Of a stretch of 64,000 nucleotides of DNA, positions 2,459 to 10,497 are shown one piece after another (positions within the stretch are counted from its first letter, which is position 1; the number at the start of each line of letters is the position of its first letter). The stretch lies in the sequence record NC_054927.1; one strand, 5' to 3'. The translations under genes were made by a program, and so were the position numbers. Under the pieces are notes generated by a model that was not told where the DNA came from, made no database searches, and was given only the letters and a program-made list of their open reading frames with translations. This DNA comes from Escherichia phage vB_EcoM_Ozark.

Positions 2459-4278
2459 TACTGGCTCATCCATTCTTTGCGAAGGTCAGCATTATCTCCC
2501 ATGAGCATTTCAAAAAGCTCTTTCCAGTTCTCAGGAAGTTTAACAACATCATATACTGGATTTTGAATCATCTCACGATATTCAGATTTTTCCAAAGAGC
2601 CAAGTCCTTTAATATAACGGATGCTATGTTTAGGTAGAGCATCTTTGGCACTCTCATATTCAGCGACTGTATAAAACCATTCTTGTTTTTTACCGACCTG
2701 AGCGATGATTACAGGAGTTTTGACAAAGCGAATTCGTCCTTGCTCAAACAGTTCTGGCCAATTACTAAAAAATCCAAGAAGAGAAGGATAAATGCTTCCT
2801 AGACCATCATGGTCAGCATCAGTCATAATAGCAATATTATGATAATTCAAGTTTTCAGCTTTTTCACCAAGAACTAATCCAGTGATTGCGCAAATATCAA
2901 ATAGTTCTTTGTTTTTAAGCATATCAGCATATGACATACCCCAACTGTTGAGAACTTTACCACGCAATGGATAACCACCATGAAGTTCTTTATCACGAAC
3001 ATCAATAAGATATCCGATAGCAGAATCACCCTCAGTCAAGAAAAGAGTAGTATCAGCATCTTTACCGCAAAGATTCGCTTTGATATGTTTATGAACTTTA
3101 GCTTTAGAAGCCTTTTTAGCTGCTTTAGTTTCAGCTGCTTTTTCTGCTGCCAATTTACGAGCTAGTGCAGCTTCAATAATTGGCATCAGAATTGCTTCAT
3201 TATTTAGAATAGCGCGTGAAATCTTTTTAGCGTCAAGTTGAATATGACTACGGATTTCACCAAATGGAGAAGTCAAACGCTCTTTAGTTTGAGAATCAAA
3301 TCGCATGTTTTTCATATCACGGACAAACATAACGATAGTCAAACATTCTTTGACACGTGCTTTAGTTACATCAATTTTGAACTTACGTTTGATTTGTGGA
3401 ATAAGGTCTTCACAAATATCATCCATAACACAGTCAATGTGATGGCCACCATTCTTAGTGTGAATGTTATTCACATAAGTTAATTGGCGAAATCCATCCG
3501 GTGAACGACCAACCGCAATAGAACAATTTTCTTGTTCTTGAACAATAGCATGTTCATCATACTGTCGTGCATATTTCTTAAAATTGCCCTGAACCTTTTT
3601 ACCATTAAAGGTAAATTGAATATCAGGATAAACTACTGCAAGTGTCTGGAGACGATCCAGTGTAATGTCAAGATAAACTTGGGACAGCTCATTAGTTTCA
3701 AATGACATAAAATCTGGAATGAAAGTAACACGAGTTCCTTTCCATTTTCCAGGAATAGTTTCCCAGGATTTATTTTCCATGCCATTTGAACAACGAACTA
3801 CAATATTATTTTGACCATCGCCAGTTTCACCGACAAACATCACAGAAAAAATGTTAGTTAAACTAGAACCAACACCATTCATACCACCGGTGACACGTTC
3901 TTTATCATCACCAAAGTTACCACCCGCTTTTGGAATAGTCCAAGCAGCAACTGGACCAGGAATTTCTTCACCGGTAGGTGTTTTAACCATCGCTTGTGGA
4001 ATACCACGACCGTTATCTTCAACTGTTACTTGATTGTTTTTGATAGTAACATTAATTTTATTTGCGAATTTAAACTTAGTACGAATACCTTCATCTACTG
4101 AGTTATCGATAATTTCATCAATAAGCTTAACAAGACCAGGTACATACTGAACACTTTCCCATTTACCAAACAGAAAGCGCTCATGCATTTCATTAGCAGA
4201 AGAGCCAATATACATGCCGCTACGCTTTTTGATATGTTCAATATCGCTCAGAATTTTAATTTCATTCTTAATCATCAC
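2458..4278 (-). CDS. 39: DNA topoisomerase II large (GyrB-like ATPase) subunit, gene 39 fused with gene 60 region (606 aa)
   Basis: GHKL ATPase and TOPRIM-like motifs; continuous 606-aa ORF as in T2-type phages, no mobA or split gene 60. Confidence 0.9.
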   Translation of the reverse strand: MMIKNEIKILSDIEHIKKRSGMYIGSSANEMHERFLFGKWESVQYVPGLVKLIDEIIDNSVDEGIRTKFKFANKINVTIKNNQVTVEDNGRGIPQAMVKTPTGEEIPGPVAAWTIPKAGGNFGDDKERVTGGMNGVGSSLTNIFSVMFVGETGDGQNNIVVRCSNGMENKSWETIPGKWKGTRVTFIPDFMSFETNELSQVYLDITLDRLQTLAVVYPDIQFTFNGKKVQGNFKKYARQYDEHAIVQEQENCSIAVGRSPDGFRQLTYVNNIHTKNGGHHIDCVMDDICEDLIPQIKRKFKIDVTKARVKECLTIVMFVRDMKNMRFDSQTKERLTSPFGEIRSHIQLDAKKISRAILNNEAILMPIIEAALARKLAAEKAAETKAAKKASKAKVHKHIKANLCGKDADTTLFLTEGDSAIGYLIDVRDKELHGGYPLRGKVLNSWGMSYADMLKNKELFDICAITGLVLGEKAENLNYHNIAIMTDADHDGLGSIYPSLLGFFSNWPELFEQGRIRFVKTPVIIAQVGKKQEWFYTVAEYESAKDALPKHSIRYIKGLGSLEKSEYREMIQNPVYDVVKLPENWKELFEMLMGDNADLRKEWMSQ

Positions 4279-4345: not shown

Positions 4346-4614
4346 TATTTAAAACGAATAGTTGAATCCTTAAAGAACAGCCCAGAACATAATGTTCCTT
4401 CTACTTTCTGCCCAGTAGATCCAACAGCACGAAATCCAGTATGTTGGAAATCATTTTCAGAGCAACCGAACCAGTTATATCCAGTGATTTCAATATTCGT
4501 AAAACCACTTGATGATAAAATTTTAGTTGCATTATCAGCATCAGTGCATCCTACTAAAGATACTGCTAATACTAATGCTGCGATAGAACGATTAACATAT
4601 TTCATAATTTTCAC
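4345..4614 (-). CDS. predicted lipoprotein (39.1-like), signal peptide with LVGC lipobox
   Basis: N-terminal hydrophobic signal plus LVGC motif. Confidence 0.5.
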   Translation of the reverse strand: MKIMKYVNRSIAALVLAVSLVGCTDADNATKILSSSGFTNIEITGYNWFGCSENDFQHTGFRAVGSTGQKVEGTLCSGLFFKDSTIRFK

Positions 4615-4982
4615 TTAAATTTAATGGCTTGAAGGAGACTAATAATTCTTAAACGGCTTCTTTCATCTTTAACTGTAAAAGAAAGAGGGTCGCCAGATTT
4701 CATAGTAATAGTGCATTCAAAATCAAAATCTTCTGTGACTTCTTCGAAGAAGTCAAATTCTTCATCATAAATTAGAACACTACTTTGCAGACTGTGGAGA
4801 GTTTTTCCAGCATTTCCAGATGCTGTACCAATCATTGTAACATTATGACCTTTCATATCTTCAACGATAAATTCGTTTGTCAATATTACAGCATTAATAG
4901 AACTATTCCTATTACTAACAGAAAGTAGAAATTTCTGTTCTTCACCTTCACGAATACGATATTTCTTACCAATTTTAAACAT
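4611..4982 (-). CDS. hypothetical protein (123 aa)
   Basis: ORF, ATGA overlap with downstream gene. Confidence 0.45.
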   Translation of the reverse strand: MFKIGKKYRIREGEEQKFLLSVSNRNSSINAVILTNEFIVEDMKGHNVTMIGTASGNAGKTLHSLQSSVLIYDEEFDFFEEVTEDFDFECTITMKSGDPLSFTVKDERSRLRIISLLQAIKFK

Positions 4983-5163: not shown

Positions 5164-5589
5164 TTATTCCTTAAAATGTGCTTTCAACATCTGATACAAG
5201 GACCATGCATGTTCATTATTTTCAATAGTAACTTTCATGACCGGGAATTCTGTGAAATCTTCTATTTGTTCTTGCTCTTTCTCTTCCTGCTCTTGCTCTT
5301 CGGCTGCCTGGTATGGATTTTCCACTTCATCAAAGAACACAGCTTCGCTCGTTGAAAGCCAGATAAAATCTTCATCCAAAATATCTTTACCAGAAGATAA
5401 CGCCAATTTTCCACTAGATGTCACAAGTTTAGTAGGACGACCAAGATAGTCAATATCTGTAACTCTAAAAGGTTCCATACCAAGACGACGTGCATAAATT
5501 CCGTTTTCAGTATGGTCCTTGATAAAATCTTCTTGAGCTTGTTTATTTTTAAATTGATACCATTTATTAACTTCAAATTTAATAGCCAT
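5164..5589 (-). CDS. goF: goF (comC-alpha)-like acidic protein (141 aa)
   Basis: 141 aa, acidic [12 protein letters not shown] tract; size and position as T4 goF. Confidence 0.45.
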
Positions 5590-5817: not shown

Positions 5818-6099
5818 TTAATTGAACAGTGGAGCGATGCGTTTCAGAAGAGTAGCAGCACCTTTAGCGAATTTTACATCATGAAAAACAGTTTCTTCTT
5901 CCGTTACAACACGAGCTTTAATGTTTTCACAATCCCAATTTTTGCGAACAATCTTCAAAAGCTGCAGTAAATCTTTACATTCAGCAATATCGATAACACA
6001 TCCACGAGAATCTTCCATTATCGCACGATAACCGTAAGCCATACCATAATCATTGAAAGATTGCTCGATGATAATTAAATTTTCCATTTTATTCTCCAA
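5818..6099 (-). CDS. hypothetical protein (93 aa)
   Basis: ORF on minus strand. Confidence 0.4.
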   Translation of the reverse strand: MENKMENLIIIEQSFNDYGMAYGYRAIMEDSRGCVIDIAECKDLLQLLKIVRKNWDCENIKARVVTEEETVFHDVKFAKGAATLLKRIAPLFN

Positions 6100-6184: not shown

Positions 6185-6676
6185 TTATGCATAGCGAGCT
6201 TTGCTATAGTGTTTAATCCAACTTTCAGGAATGACTTTGTATGTTCCTAAAAATACCGCGTTGTATAACTTAACGCCATCTTCTACCCATTGATCAGTAA
6301 TGTATGCACACATAGCGCGAGTACGGTTAACAACACCTTCCTCACCTTCAGTAAATTCAAACTCATAAGGAGCAACGAACTTGATAGCCTGACCGAGTTT
6401 CCACTTAAAGTCTACACCTACATGCGAAGTATCAATCGTTTCAATTCCTTTAGCAGGAACAGCTTTTAAAAACGCAGATTCAAGAAATTTCGCACGAACA
6501 TAGCCAAACTGGGGTTTAGACTTTCCATCTTTAGGAATGATACGCACTTTTACTTCAGAATCTTCATCTTTAACACCGTGTTTAAGCTGAATGCTTACAA
6601 CTTCAACCAATTTTCCTGCTGCTTTAGAACGGGATTTATCAGATACACGAGCTAATTCACCAATATTAATAATCAT
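6185..6676 (-). CDS. motB: MotB-like early protein (163 aa)
   Basis: size and position between cef region and dexA as T4 motB. Confidence 0.45.
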   Translation of the reverse strand: MIINIGELARVSDKSRSKAAGKLVEVVSIQLKHGVKDEDSEVKVRIIPKDGKSKPQFGYVRAKFLESAFLKAVPAKGIETIDTSHVGVDFKWKLGQAIKFVAPYEFEFTEGEEGVVNRTRAMCAYITDQWVEDGVKLYNAVFLGTYKVIPESWIKHYSKARYA

Positions 6677-6720
6677 AGTTATCTCTCACTTGTTAAAAAG
6701 ATTTTATACTCCACAGGACC

Positions 6721-6750
6721 ATTATACTCTGGTCCCAAGAGTTTGTAAAC
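6721..6750 (-). promoter_or_regulatory. T4 early-type promoter (GTTTAC / TATAAT)
   Basis: fwd gtaaac 6745-6750, attata 6721-6726, 18-nt spacer; upstream of 6185..6676. Confidence 0.55.
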
Positions 6751-7124
6751 TAGCTTACACGAACATTAATCACTGCGCTACGAGGAACTACAGAGTATTC
6801 TCCAGCATGAACTACGTTCAGAAGTTCAACGCCATCTTCAATCCACTGATCAGTTACCCAACCGCCGACCGGATTCGCGAATGGACGACGAATGTAAACT
6901 GCCTTACACAACAAATCAGTCGGATCTTCAGGTTTTTCAATTTCTGTCAATAGATTAAAATCTTCTTCATAGATGATAAATGATGATACTATTCCATGAT
7001 AGTTTCTAATTTCCATGTATACTGTACCAATAAGAATTCCGCTATTAACGCTAATAACAGTAAAAGGATACCCATAAGTTACACCAAGAAGGTCCCAAAA
7101 CTTACCATAAGTCGTATTAGACAT
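6750..7124 (-). CDS. paralog of the C-terminal domain of the adjacent MotB-like protein (124 aa)
   Basis: C-terminal alignment with 6185..6676 (TDQW[VI]EDGV.L.N.V..G.Y.V[IV]P). Confidence 0.45.
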   Translation of the reverse strand: MSNTTYGKFWDLLGVTYGYPFTVISVNSGILIGTVYMEIRNYHGIVSSFIIYEEDFNLLTEIEKPEDPTDLLCKAVYIRRPFANPVGGWVTDQWIEDGVELLNVVHAGEYSVVPRSAVINVRVS

Positions 7125-7193
7125 TGTTGATAAATCAATTTTAGGGGATTTTTCAATTTGTAAACAGTATTAATTTTAATCATGATTTTCTCT

Positions 7194-7736
7194 TTAGTCT
7201 AAAGTAATAAAGCCTTTTAATTCAGCATGCGATTTACGGAACATTACTTGATGCCCACCAATGATAACTTGATCATCTGGCACTTCGTATACAGCAAGAT
7301 AAAATCCTTTAGAAGATAATTCTTCACGCTCTTCTCGTGTGAACCATCTCATCATATCATATTCGCTAGCGAAACCAAAATGATAAAGAGCTATAAACCA
7401 TCCGGGAATATAATGATCTACGCCTACATATTCTTCTTTCTCAAAGTTAGTATTAATTGCTATATTAGCATTTTTAACTAATAATTTGTCTTCGTGCGGA
7501 AGAGGAATTCTTTTATTATCATTACTATGATGCATAAAATTAGGTCTGTCATAACCTACGTGTAATAACCACTCTTCGCTCCATGAATCTATTATACTCC
7601 TGTATGGCGTTATTTGAACACAAAGATTTCGACGTATTGTTATAGCATCTTCATAATTAAGAATACTAAAAGATGATTCAACACGATAAATTTTCATTTT
7701 ATTATCCTCAGTAGCTATGGTGTTATAATACCACAA
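7194..7736 (-). CDS. hypothetical protein (180 aa)
   Basis: ORF downstream of dexA. Confidence 0.45.
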   Translation of the reverse strand: MWYYNTIATEDNKMKIYRVESSFSILNYEDAITIRRNLCVQITPYRSIIDSWSEEWLLHVGYDRPNFMHHSNDNKRIPLPHEDKLLVKNANIAINTNFEKEEYVGVDHYIPGWFIALYHFGFASEYDMMRWFTREEREELSSKGFYLAVYEVPDDQVIIGGHQVMFRKSHAELKGFITLD

Positions 7737-7760: not shown

Positions 7761-8444
7761 TTATCGTTTTGTTGGAAGAGATAGAGGATCGCATTCTTCC
7801 TCTGACGGAGCATCTTCAAGACCCATAGCATATCGCAAAGCATACTTCATCATCAGAATATCTTTCGCACAGTCATGAATAGAATCATGTGCAACGAATC
7901 CATCTAAAGTTCCCTTTGGAAGAGGACATGTGGTCATATCACGAACAAGCAGAAGTGCTTCAATTCTGGTACGAATATCACGCTGATTCCAGAATTTACA
8001 AGGTTCTAACTTAAATGTATCAAGCTCATTCTCGGAAACGCCGTTAAGACGTTGAATATCGCGAATGAGATCGACTAAAATTGGAAAATCAAACGACATT
8101 CCACGGCACCAACCTTGAGATTTCCAAGGATCGATGTTATGTGCATTGATGTAATCATTAAATTTTGCAATACCATCGATAGTGCTTACATCTTCATTGG
8201 ATGGTGCAATATTTTTTCGAGCTTCAGGAGATTGATTCTTCCACCATTCGATAGTGCTTTTAGTAAAAAGACGATGTCCTTTTTGACTTTTTAAATCAAA
8301 TTTGATTTTAATGCCACGTGAAACTAATTCATCAAATGTTTCAACTACTTCTGGATTAGGGTCAAAAGCAATTACAGCTAAATCAATAACCGCTGCTTTT
8401 TCACCACTTCCCATTGTTTCAAAATCTATAATAAAATCAAACAT
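7761..8444 (-). CDS. dexA: exonuclease A (DnaQ-like 3-5 exonuclease), 227 aa
   Basis: N-terminal DFETMG Exo I motif; 227 aa as T4 DexA. Confidence 0.8.
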   Translation of the reverse strand: MFDFIIDFETMGSGEKAAVIDLAVIAFDPNPEVVETFDELVSRGIKIKFDLKSQKGHRLFTKSTIEWWKNQSPEARKNIAPSNEDVSTIDGIAKFNDYINAHNIDPWKSQGWCRGMSFDFPILVDLIRDIQRLNGVSENELDTFKLEPCKFWNQRDIRTRIEALLLVRDMTTCPLPKGTLDGFVAHDSIHDCAKDILMMKYALRYAMGLEDAPSEEECDPLSLPTKR

Positions 8445-9177: not shown

Positions 9178-10497
9178 TCACACATAAAACACATCATAAC
9201 GACCACGAGTGACACCAACATAAAGAAGCTGCTGAGCTAATTCAGCATCTGCATAATGAATACAAGGCGTATAAATGAAAGCACGGTCTACAGACATACC
9301 CTGCGCTTTATGGAATGTTGATGCAGGAAGTGCTTTCACTTTACTAAACTGTGATTTAGCATCCCAAAAATCGCTCCACGGAGCTTTTCCGCCTTTGTTC
9401 CAATTTTTATAAGTTTCTGCCGTTTTACCTAAAAATAGGTTAAACTTATACAATTCTTCATCGGATGAAATTATTTTAATCTTTTCACGATAATATTCAT
9501 CATCGCCGTAAGTTTCTACTGTTAAATCCCAATGACGAATTAGATATTCCCCAGGAACACCACGAGCTTTAACAAACGTTGATGTATACTCAGCTTCTAT
9601 AATACGAACTAATTGTCCGTTATTAAAAATAATTTCTGATACAGGCTTTCCATCAATTTTATATGTTTTAATTAATGGTTCCTGCATTACAATAATTTCA
9701 CCGACAATAAAATCTTTATCAGTTTCAAAAATCTTTTTACGAATAATGCTATTTAACTTGTCAACAGATTTATTCGTAAATGCCATTACGCGATTTTCAA
9801 ACAAATCATCTAAAGATTTGACGATTGAAAAATAATTTACCATAAAATCGCGTAAAGCGGTATCACCAGTAAATCCACGTACTCCATGCCCGTCAACAAC
9901 TTTATCATAAATCCACTTACCGTTACGAACGTCAGTAGCTACATCAATAATAGGAGCATTACTGCGTTTAACTTCAGTAAGTTCACACTGATAAAAATCT
10001 TTATGTGTAAAGAATGGACTGATATAAGCAGTGTTTTCTCCTGGGTCAACAGGTCTAATTTGCTTATTATCGCCTATTCCAATTATAGTACACCAAGGTG
10101 GGATAGTTGAAAGCAGAATTTTAAACAGCTTTCTATCATACATTGACACTTCGTCACAGATTAATACTCTGCATTTAGCTAAATCTGGTACTTCCTTCTG
10201 CTCAAAGAGGACATTTTCTTCATATGTTACTGGGTTAATTTTAAGAATACTATGAATAGTACTCGCTTCTTTCCCTGATAGTTTTGAAAGAATCTTTTTA
10301 GCTGCATGAGTAGGAGCTGCTAAAATAATACCAGTTTCACCCGTAGATATTAAAGCTTCAATGATGAACTTAGTAAGAGTAGTCTTACCGGTACCGGCAG
10401 GTCCATTAATAGTTACATGATGTTTCTTTTCTTTAATAGCCTTCATAACAATGTTAAAGGCATTTTTCTGGCCTTCGGTCAAATCATCAAATGTCAT
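9178..10497 (-). CDS. dda: Dda DNA helicase (SF1B), 439 aa
   Basis: Walker A GPAGTGKTT; 439 aa as T4 Dda. Confidence 0.9.
   Translation of the reverse strand: MTFDDLTEGQKNAFNIVMKAIKEKKHHVTINGPAGTGKTTLTKFIIEALISTGETGIILAAPTHAAKKILSKLSGKEASTIHSILKINPVTYEENVLFEQKEVPDLAKCRVLICDEVSMYDRKLFKILLSTIPPWCTIIGIGDNKQIRPVDPGENTAYISPFFTHKDFYQCELTEVKRSNAPIIDVATDVRNGKWIYDKVVDGHGVRGFTGDTALRDFMVNYFSIVKSLDDLFENRVMAFTNKSVDKLNSIIRKKIFETDKDFIVGEIIVMQEPLIKTYKIDGKPVSEIIFNNGQLVRIIEAEYTSTFVKARGVPGEYLIRHWDLTVETYGDDEYYREKIKIISSDEELYKFNLFLGKTAETYKNWNKGGKAPWSDFWDAKSQFSKVKALPASTFHKAQGMSVDRAFIYTPCIHYADAELAQQLLYVGVTRGRYDVFYV

What the first reader, a model, noticed from the sequence alone, without database searches (positions are those of the whole stretch)
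6185..7124. Tandem duplication of the MotB-like C-terminal domain
The 124-aa ORF at 6750..7124 aligns with the C-terminal half of the adjacent 163-aa MotB-like protein (RPFANPVGGWVTDQWIEDGVELLNVVHAGEYSVVP against RAMCAYITDQWVEDGVKLYNAVFLGTYKVIP). T4 MotB is a DNA-binding modulator of gene expression; a second stand-alone copy of its C-terminal domain suggests subfunctionalisation.
Basis: partly seen in the sequence, partly recalled or inferred. Interest (0 to 1): 0.4.

Follow-up and report, generated by a model that had tools for sequence, protein, structure and literature searches.

The report
Known motB / motB.1 paralogue pair
The two neighbouring genes are the already published motB and motB.1 paralogues of T4-like phages, which share a conserved C-terminal domain; motB.1 is not a bare copy of that domain, because it has its own N-terminal barrel, which a one-base frameshift cuts short in this record.

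Summary
The 163-aa ORF (6185..6676, -) is MotB and the 124-aa ORF (6750..7124, -) is MotB.1 of a T4-like Tequatrovirus. Its exact protein is YP_010072577.1 of phage vB_EcoM_Ozark. Their C-termini match far above chance: BLASTP 16/29 identical, E 4e-10; profile-profile E 5e-15 over 37 columns. Intermediate family members extend the homology to the whole C-terminal domain, about 65 residues.

Son et al. 2021 (PMC7827196) described the shared MotB/MotB.1 C-terminal domain and proposed a duplication. Kim et al. 2025 (PMC12152347) showed that MotB.1 has its own N-terminal LSm/SH3-like barrel, related to GoF and Frd.2. So MotB.1 is a two-domain protein, not a stand-alone domain copy.

The ORF is 124 aa only because this record has A5 instead of A6 at 7149..7153. 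Relatives encode 143-145 aa starting from the ATG at 7183.

Three small additions came out of the work. The T4 reference motB.1 carries an extra G inside the conserved module that two re-sequenced T4 genomes lack. A Klebsiella T4-like phage has a single gene at this locus, with a KOW-type N-terminus and a MotB.1-type C-terminus. The shared domain is the most conserved part of both families and is acidic or neutral. Function of MotB.1 remains unknown. Interest is low.

The parts
6185..6676 (-). motB, 163 aa including stop: KOW-like N-terminal barrel, a linker predicted to be disordered, and a beta C-terminal domain.
6209..6319 (-). MotB residues 120-156: the directly alignable shared module (RAMCAYITDQWVEDGVKLYNAVFLGTYKVIPESWIKH).
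   Evidence: hhalign E 5e-15. BLASTP E 4e-10.
6203..6415 (-). MotB residues about 88-158: the whole C-terminal domain. It is homologous to the MotB.1 C-terminal domain by transitivity and carries a roughly 15-residue extra hairpin (about 105-119) that MotB.1 lacks.
   Evidence: The KOW-plus-MotB.1-type-CTD group aligns with MotB over its full length (129 columns, E 4.9e-25) and with MotB.1 over 65 C-terminal columns (E 1.9e-35).
6750..7124 (-). The motB.1 reading frame as it stands in this record: 124 aa, starting at the internal Met21 of the family's 144-aa form.
   Evidence: phrog_2333 E 1.6e-58. The exact sequence equals YP_010072577.1 of phage vB_EcoM_Ozark, found on 1 contig. Four of the other six members of its 90% cluster are 144 aa; the other two are a 90-aa partial sequence and the 144-aa representative P0001.
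6954..7183 (-). motB.1 N-terminal domain (GoF/LSm/SH3-like barrel, residues 1-77 of the 144-aa form), interrupted by the frameshift. The canonical ATG is at 7183..7181, 10 nt after the motB.2 stop.
7149..7153 (-). A5 run where ECO07P2 and T4 have A6: a one-base deletion that puts the canonical start out of frame. From that start the recorded sequence would give a 34-aa peptide ending at 7079.
6756..6953 (-). MotB.1 C-terminal domain: residues 58-123 of the 124-aa ORF, equal to 78-143 of the 144-aa form.
   Evidence: hhalign with the bridging group, 65 columns, E 1.9e-35. Mean pairwise identity within the MotB.1 family is 83% here, against 45% in the N-terminal domain.
6765..6875 (-). MotB.1 shared module: residues 84-120 of the 124-aa ORF (NPVGGWVTDQWIEDGVELLNVVHAGEYSVVPRSAVIN).
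6677..6749 (-). motB.1-motB intergenic region: early promoter TTTACA-N17-TATAAT (6749..6721), GGAG at 6712..6709 followed by an A-rich tract, and a stable hairpin around the -10 element.
   Evidence: Promoter scan, 11/12 match. From the promoter -35 element onward the region is identical in ECO07P2 and differs from T4 at one base. RNA fold -22.1 kcal/mol, z -3.09. The motB promoter and the GGAG plus A-rich RegB/S1 cleavage site are described in PMC1702504.

Best explanation
**Shown: what the genes are.** This is the motB-motB.1 gene pair of a T4-like phage (Tequatrovirus). Both genes lie in the dispensable early region, in the order dda, dexA, motB.2, motB.1, motB, cef, goF. The two products are paralogous in a C-terminal all-beta domain of about 65 residues. 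Its last 37 residues (W/Y-x-TDQW-x-EDGV-x-L-x-N-x-V...G-x-[YF]-x-V-x-P) are the most conserved part of both families.

- MotB combines this domain with a KOW-type small barrel.
- MotB.1 combines it with a different small barrel that is related in sequence to GoF.

**Inferred: how the pair arose.** An ancestral single gene of the form KOW plus C-terminal domain duplicated in tandem. A Klebsiella Kanagawavirus still has only such a gene at the syntenic place.

- The copy that became MotB kept the KOW barrel, and its C-terminal domain diverged and gained a hairpin.
- The copy that became MotB.1 kept the ancestral-looking C-terminal domain but acquired a GoF-type N-terminal barrel by domain shuffling among neighbouring early genes.

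**Shown: the state of motB.1 in this record.** A one-base deletion in an A-run truncates the gene at its 5' end. Whether that is a sequencing error or a real lesion in a dispensable gene cannot be decided here.

**Inferred, low confidence (about 0.35): how the proteins work.** The constant C-terminal domain is a shared docking or oligomerisation module, acidic or neutral in charge. The variable N-terminal barrels supply the nucleic-acid contact: the lysine-rich KOW barrel for MotB's non-specific DNA binding and interplay with H-NS, and an LSm-like barrel of unknown ligand for MotB.1.
For: - **Identity of the genes:** Pfam and PHROG matches, synteny with T4, an exact protein match to phage Ozark, and 96% nucleotide identity to Tequatrovirus genomes.
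- **Homology of the C-terminal domains:**
- **Old duplication held by selection on the protein, not recent gene conversion:** nucleotide identity in the module is 57%; by codon position it is 58%, 68% and 45%.
- **MotB.1 has its own N-terminal domain:**
- **That domain is related to GoF rather than to MotB:** the MotB.1 HMM hits the GoF-family ORF at 4611..4982 with E 5.6e-6, and phrog_2333 and phrog_622 cross-hit. The N-terminal profiles of MotB and MotB.1 give only E 0.07-0.25.
- **Three architectures exist among only 24 representatives in 1.84 billion proteins**.
- **Single KOW-plus-CTD gene at the syntenic locus of Klebsiella phage KLB31**.
- **The C-terminal domain is the most constrained part:** 83% against 45% identity in MotB.1, and 60-70% against 55% in MotB.
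- **Charge:** the module is net -1 to -4 in MotB.1 (mostly -3 or -4) and 0 to -4 in MotB. The +5 of T4-type MotB sits in the KOW domain.
- **Frameshift:**
- **Published background:** PMC7827196, PMC12152347 and PMC6070864.
Against: - The direction of the N-terminal swap rests on one outgroup locus examined in detail. No rooted phylogeny was made.
- The C-terminal domain of the MotB.1 model has low confidence (pLDDT 57-71).
- Son et al. predicted the MotB C-terminal domain to be an OB-fold DNA-binding domain, which would make the shared domain the nucleic-acid binder. I could not run a search on the domain alone.
- Many MotB homologues are acidic overall, with pI about 5, so the charge argument is weak.
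- No function of MotB.1 has been found experimentally.
Confidence: 0.75

Rival explanations
1. Whole-gene tandem duplication with no domain swap. MotB and MotB.1 are homologous from end to end, and the two N-terminal small barrels (KOW-like and LSm/GoF-like) are one ancestral barrel that has diverged beyond recognition by sequence.
For: Both N-terminal domains give SH3-like barrel hits, and many PDB entries appear in both lists: 5ohq, 6hq9, 1m1g, 6hum, 6if4, 3fc3, 5hh7, 9fhl and 4ytl. Foldseek aligns the MotB model with MotB.1-type proteins over 133-195 columns, with E from 1.6e-5 to 1.5e-4. The N-terminal starts look alike: MIINIGELARV, MIKINTVYKL, AIEIGKTYKL.
Against: Once the module is removed, the N-terminal profiles do not match (E 0.07-0.25, probability below 1%). 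The MotB.1 N-terminal domain does match the GoF family significantly. The Foldseek TM scores are about 0.3, and its E-values include the strong sequence signal from the module.
Confidence: 0.2
2. One reading: a partial duplication copied only the MotB C-terminal domain, leaving a stand-alone domain protein.
For: The ORF as recorded is short (124 aa), and only its C-terminal third aligns directly with MotB.
Against: Residues 1-57 of the ORF, plus 20 upstream codons lost to a frameshift, form a separate, confidently predicted barrel that is conserved in the 143-145-aa and longer homologues. The only stand-alone module peptides seen are remnants: the 29-aa RB69 ORF, which lies in a frameshifted motB.1, and the 43-aa P0264, a MotB.2/MotB.1 fusion left by a deletion.
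Confidence: 0.03
3. Functional rival: the shared C-terminal domain is an OB-fold nucleic-acid-binding domain, as HHpred suggested to Son et al. On this view both MotB and MotB.1 bind DNA or RNA through it, and MotB.1 is a second nucleoid- or RNA-binding early protein.
Confidence: 0.3
4. The similarity is kept high by recent gene conversion between the adjacent copies rather than by selection on the protein.
For: The copies are adjacent, and one short stretch of DNA (GAAGATGGCGTT) is identical in both.
Against: Over the module the DNA is only 57% identical, and third codon positions (45%) are less conserved than first (58%) and second (68%) positions. The two module types stay distinct across genera.
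Confidence: 0.02

Closest known systems
T4 MotB / MotB.1 pair as described by Son et al. 2021 (Viruses 13:84, PMC7827196)
   Same: Same genes and same synteny. That paper already reports the conserved C-terminal domain shared by two adjacent early genes and suggests that one gene arose by duplication of the other. Its 'categories' with other N-terminal domains correspond to the three architectures found here.
   Different: In this record motB.1 is frameshifted at its 5' end and reads as 124 aa. The T4 reference protein used in the literature is truncated at its 3' end inside the module and reads as 119 aa. Most relatives encode 143-145 aa.
[quoted passage not shown] 2025, PMC12152347)
   Different: They found no similarity with conventional BLASTP. 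Here a family HMM of MotB.1 detects the GoF paralogue at E 5.6e-6. In this record the first strand of the barrel is out of frame.
eIF5A / EF-P type two-domain proteins (SH3/KOW-like barrel followed by an OB-like beta domain)

Membership tests
Pfam PF17613 (motB, 'Modifier of transcription') | Score at or above the curated gathering cut-off of 25 bits | tested here: met
   MotB scores 334.8 bits over profile positions 1-162. The 124-aa ORF scores 33.2 bits, but only over profile positions 118-153.
Pfam PF17613 (motB) | Full-length match including the KOW-like N-terminal half | tested here: not met
   This applies to the 124-aa ORF (MotB.1). The N-terminal two thirds do not match the MotB profile. 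MotB itself meets the feature.
MotB.1 family (phrog_2333; 'Category 2' of Son et al. 2021) | GoF-type N-terminal domain followed by DPTDLLC...GWVTDQWIEDGVELLNVVH...VVPRS | tested here: met
   phrog_2333 E 1.6e-58. Alignment with 143-145-aa homologues at 85-98% identity. The first 20 residues are missing because of the frameshift.
GoF/MotB.1/Frd.2 LSm-like fold family (Kim et al. 2025) | N-terminal bent five-stranded antiparallel beta-sheet (SH3/LSm-like barrel) | tested here: met
GoF/MotB.1/Frd.2 LSm-like fold family | RNA-related activity | not testable with these tools
   Kim et al. saw no reporter effect for MotB.1.
KOW / SH3-like barrel (MotB N-terminal domain) | Fold-level match to KOW domains of Spt5 and NusG | tested here: met
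OB-fold, cold-shock DNA-binding type (proposed by Son et al. for the shared C-terminal domain) | Five-stranded barrel with OB strand order and matches to OB-fold structures | tested here: inconclusive
Non-specific DNA-binding, H-NS-associated protein (the experimentally defined MotB function) | DNA binding and copurification with H-NS and StpA | not testable with these tools
   Shown for T4 MotB only (PMC6070864 and PMC7827196). This MotB is 89% identical to the cluster P0124, whose members include a Shigella sonnei entry and a UniRef 'Transcriptional regulator' entry. Nothing is known for MotB.1.

The most novel reading that the evidence does not exclude
The MotB family is a modular set of early proteins: one constant, strongly constrained C-terminal beta domain carries interchangeable small-barrel N-terminal domains (KOW-type, GoF/LSm-type, or duplicated GoF-type). 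After a tandem duplication of a single ancestral KOW-plus-CTD gene, the two T4 copies each kept one ancestral half. The constant domain would direct both proteins to one common partner, for example H-NS/StpA or the nucleoid. On this reading MotB.1 would be a second effector aimed at the nucleoid. The published negative results for MotB.1 would be uninformative, because they were obtained with the T4 reference form that is truncated inside this domain.
Probability: 0.15. Interest if true: 0.45.

Novelty: already known. Interest (0 to 1): 0.15.

Why it matters
The finding itself adds nothing to the published picture of motB and motB.1.

The side results have modest practical value for people who work on T4 early genes:

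- The domain shared by MotB and MotB.1 is the conserved core of a very small, phage-restricted family, with only 24 representatives at E <= 0.001 among 1.84 billion proteins.
- Three reference records carry motB.1 alleles broken by single-base indels: this one, T4 NC_000866 and RB69.
- The form studied experimentally so far (13.8 kDa, 119 aa) lacks most of the conserved module, so functional tests may need repeating with the 143-aa allele.

Tried and rejected
- **Further copies of the module in the window.** An HMM scan of all six frames found none; the next best hit had E 0.38.
- **Direct homology of the two N-terminal domains.** Profile-profile comparison with the module removed gave E 0.02-0.25 and probability at most 2.3%.
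- **Solved structures by sequence.** Family profiles found nothing for MotB and only a chance kinase hit (E 0.56) for MotB.1.
- **The 842-aa Ig-repeat protein P0268.** It matched with seven stretches at E 4.4e-4 in the representative search. I read this as a chance resemblance of the Ig 'YQWQKNGVSLTN' strand pair to 'DQWIEDGVELLN', not as a family member.
- **Gene conversion.** Rejected on the codon-position pattern of identity.
- **Intrinsic terminator between the genes.** None was found by the consensus scan.
- **Programmed frameshift or transcriptional slippage at the A5 run.** There is no supporting evidence. The run is short, relatives have a plain A6 in frame, and the internal ATG at 7124 has no Shine-Dalgarno-like sequence upstream.

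Full report
**What is at the coordinates.** The minus strand carries ORFs in the order of the T4 early region. From the upstream end they are dda (9178..10497), three small ORFs, dexA (7761..8444), a 180-aa ORF (7194..7736), a 124-aa ORF (6750..7124), a 163-aa ORF (6185..6676), a 93-aa ORF, cef, goF and an FmdB-like ORF.

- The 163-aa protein is MotB. Pfam PF17613 scores it at 334.8 bits over the full length, and phrog_1671 gives E 3.5e-76.
- The 124-aa protein belongs to phrog_2333. It occupies the position of T4 motB.1, and the 180-aa ORF occupies that of motB.2.
- The DNA is 95-96% identical to many Tequatrovirus genomes.
- The exact 124-aa protein is YP_010072577.1 of Escherichia phage vB_EcoM_Ozark.

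**Check of the observation.** The quoted peptides are present and their similarity is far above chance.

- BLASTP gives 16/29 identities, E 4e-10.
- The local alignment score is 98, against 27.7 +/- 4.8 for 2000 shuffles, and no shuffle reached it.
- Pfam's motB model scores MotB.1 above its gathering cut-off, but only on profile positions 118-153.
- Profile-profile alignment of the two families gives E 5e-15 over 37 columns.
- A module HMM finds exactly two copies in the 64-kb window.
- At the DNA level the module is 57% identical. Third codon positions (45%) are the least conserved, so this is an old duplication maintained by selection on the protein, not recent gene conversion.

**How far the homology extends.** Compared directly, only the last 37 residues align. 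With them removed, the remainders do not match (E 0.02-0.25).

I searched a MotB.1-family profile against 1.84 billion representative proteins. It returned only 24 proteins at E <= 0.001. Those I examined fall into three architectures:

- a GoF-type N-terminus with a MotB.1-type C-terminus, sometimes with the N-terminal domain duplicated;
- a KOW-type N-terminus (MKIGSRVYVSxLSxSKVAGE...) with a MotB.1-type C-terminus;
- MotB proper.

The second group bridges the other two. It aligns with MotB over the full length (129 columns, E 4.9e-25). It aligns with MotB.1 over 65 C-terminal columns (E 1.9e-35). By transitivity, MotB residues 88-158 correspond to residues 58-123 of the 124-aa ORF, and MotB carries an extra hairpin of about 15 residues.

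**MotB.1 is not a stand-alone domain.** Close homologues are 143-145 aa and start 20 codons further upstream with MIKINTVYKLKKSPKIDLST.

- In this record the run TTG-AAAAA-TCC (7149..7153) has five A where ECO07P2 and T4 have six.
- Adding one A restores a 144-aa ORF from the ATG at 7183. That ORF is 141/144 identical to P0001.
- As recorded, the canonical start gives a 34-aa peptide, and the 124-aa ORF begins at an internal Met with no obvious ribosome-binding site upstream.
- The 124-aa form occurs on one contig only. Four of the other six members of its 90% cluster are 144 aa; the remaining two are a 90-aa partial sequence and the 144-aa representative.

I could also detect that relation by sequence. 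The MotB.1 family HMM hits the 123-aa ORF at 4611..4982 with E 5.6e-6. That ORF is a GoF-family member (phrog_622, the same family as GoF at 5164..5589).

**Evolutionary reading (inferred).**

- Klebsiella phage KLB31 (Kanagawavirus) has one family gene at the syntenic place, in the order dexA, a hypothetical gene at the motB.2 position, the family gene, cef, goF. That gene has a KOW-type N-terminus and a MotB.1-type C-terminus.
- Tequatrovirus has two genes at this place.
- RB69 and ST0 (Mosigvirus) have three family copies in a different order.

The simplest account is tandem duplication of a KOW-plus-CTD gene. MotB then kept the KOW barrel while its C-terminal domain diverged. MotB.1 kept the ancestral-looking C-terminal domain and gained a GoF-type barrel.

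The rival account is whole-gene duplication with extreme N-terminal divergence. It is not excluded. Both N-terminal domains are SH3-like barrels, and Foldseek aligns the proteins along most of their length, but with TM scores of only about 0.3.

**Function.**

- Published experiments show that T4 MotB binds DNA without sequence specificity and is toxic to E. coli.
- It doubles burst size, copurifies with H-NS and StpA and changes H-NS footprints.
- A motB knockdown barely changes the T4 transcriptome.
- MotB.1 has no known function. Its deletion gives no phenotype, and it had no effect in an mRNA reporter assay.

My own data add two things. First, the shared C-terminal domain is the most constrained part of both families: 83% against 45% identity in MotB.1, and 60-70% against 55% in MotB. 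Second, the shared module is acidic or neutral, whereas the positive charge of T4-type MotB lies in the KOW domain.

On that basis I favour, with low confidence, a constant docking or oligomerisation domain combined with variable N-terminal barrels that bind nucleic acid. The alternative is Son et al.'s prediction that the C-terminal domain is an OB-fold DNA-binding domain. It remains open, because I could not search with the domain alone.

**Comparison with what is known, and novelty.** The shared C-terminal domain of MotB and MotB.1, and the suggestion that one gene arose by duplication of the other, were published in 2021 (PMC7827196). The separate N-terminal domain of MotB.1 was published in 2025 (PMC12152347). 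The intergenic early promoter and the GGAG plus A-rich RegB/S1 site upstream of motB are classical (PMC1702504).

**New minor points.**

- The 5' frameshift in this record.
- An extra G in the T4 reference inside the conserved module (next paragraph).
- The bridging architecture and the single-copy locus.

**T4 reference allele.** NC_000866.4 has ATTGGAAGATGG where T4T, T4 'wild', ECO07P2 and this window have ATTGAAGATGG. This ends the annotated protein at 119 aa (...WIGRWR), inside the conserved module. The 143-aa form is seen on 256 contigs and the 119-aa form on 2.

**Verdict.** Interest is low.

Noticed in passing
L001 (T4 NC_000866.4) 2292-2651, record 7291-7650; compare L006 and L007: The T4 reference motB.1 has an extra G (ATTGGAAGATGG). 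It shifts the frame inside the conserved module, so the annotated 119-aa, 13.8-kDa protein lacks EDGVELLNVVHAGEYSVVPRSAV. T4T (HM137666) and T4 'wild' (KJ477684) lack the G and encode 143 aa, and in KJ477684 the gene is not annotated at all. The 143-aa form is on 256 contigs and the 119-aa form on 2. Published MotB.1 experiments quote the 13.8-kDa form.
   Followed up: yes
L004 (RB69 NC_004928.1) 3177-3763: RB69 motB.1 also looks frameshifted. The GoF-type N-terminal domain is in one frame (3278..3763), and the module is split over two other frames (3180..3278 and 3253..3363). The annotated 29-aa ORF RB69p012, which is 'Category 3' of Son et al., is therefore probably the detached C-terminal end of motB.1 and not a gene of its own.
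   Followed up: partly
L005 (phage ST0 NC_041990.1) 2731-3324: An open frame with both a MotB-type KOW N-terminal domain (E 3.7e-26) and the module (E 6.6e-25) lies in a stretch that has no annotated CDS in this RefSeq record. It sits between the motB.1-like gene and the annotated MotB-like gene.
   Followed up: partly
window 4611..4982 (-): This 123-aa ORF lies just beyond the FmdB-like (39.2-type) ORF, on the side away from goF, roughly where T4 has the short gene 39.1. It is a second GoF-family protein (phrog_622 E 2.1e-28, the same family as GoF at 5164..5589), and the MotB.1 family HMM also detects it (E 5.6e-6). The region thus holds three proteins with related small-barrel N-termini.
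   Followed up: partly
window 5818..6099 (-): A 93-aa ORF (phrog_3720, unknown function) lies between motB and cef, where T4 has only a gap of about 170 bp.
   Followed up: no
window 6677..6749 (-): The motB.1-motB spacer is identical in ECO07P2 and differs from T4 at one base. It holds an early promoter (TTTACA-N17-TATAAT) whose -10 element sits in the loop of a GGGACCA/TGGTCCT hairpin. It also holds the RegB/S1 site GGAGTATAAAATC, and a second hairpin that pairs the motB Shine-Dalgarno region (GAGAGAT) with ATCTTTT. The RNA fold is -22.1 kcal/mol, z -3.1.
   Followed up: partly
P0264 (43 aa), P0252 (251 aa), P0254 (246 aa): P0264 joins the first 15 or so residues of MotB.2 (MKIYRVESSFSIL.YED) directly to the last 27 residues of MotB.1. 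This looks like a deletion across motB.2 and motB.1 at a short YED/EDG homology. In P0252 and P0254 the MotB.1 profile matches in two stretches; P0252 visibly carries two GoF-type N-terminal domains before one C-terminal domain, and P0254 has an extra N-terminal region ahead of one.
   Followed up: no
P0030, P0085 and similar 180-aa MotB.1 homologues; P0023, P0027 (166-169 aa): A short motif (D-x-D-[VI]-x-[SC]-x-Y-x-x-P-[VI]-K) occurs in two different places in MotB.1 homologues. In the 180-aa forms it lies before the N-terminal domain. In the 166-169-aa forms, and in the KOW-type bridging group, it lies between the N- and C-terminal domains. Some 141-aa annotations of the same genes start after it, so its status as coding sequence or remnant is unclear.
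   Followed up: no
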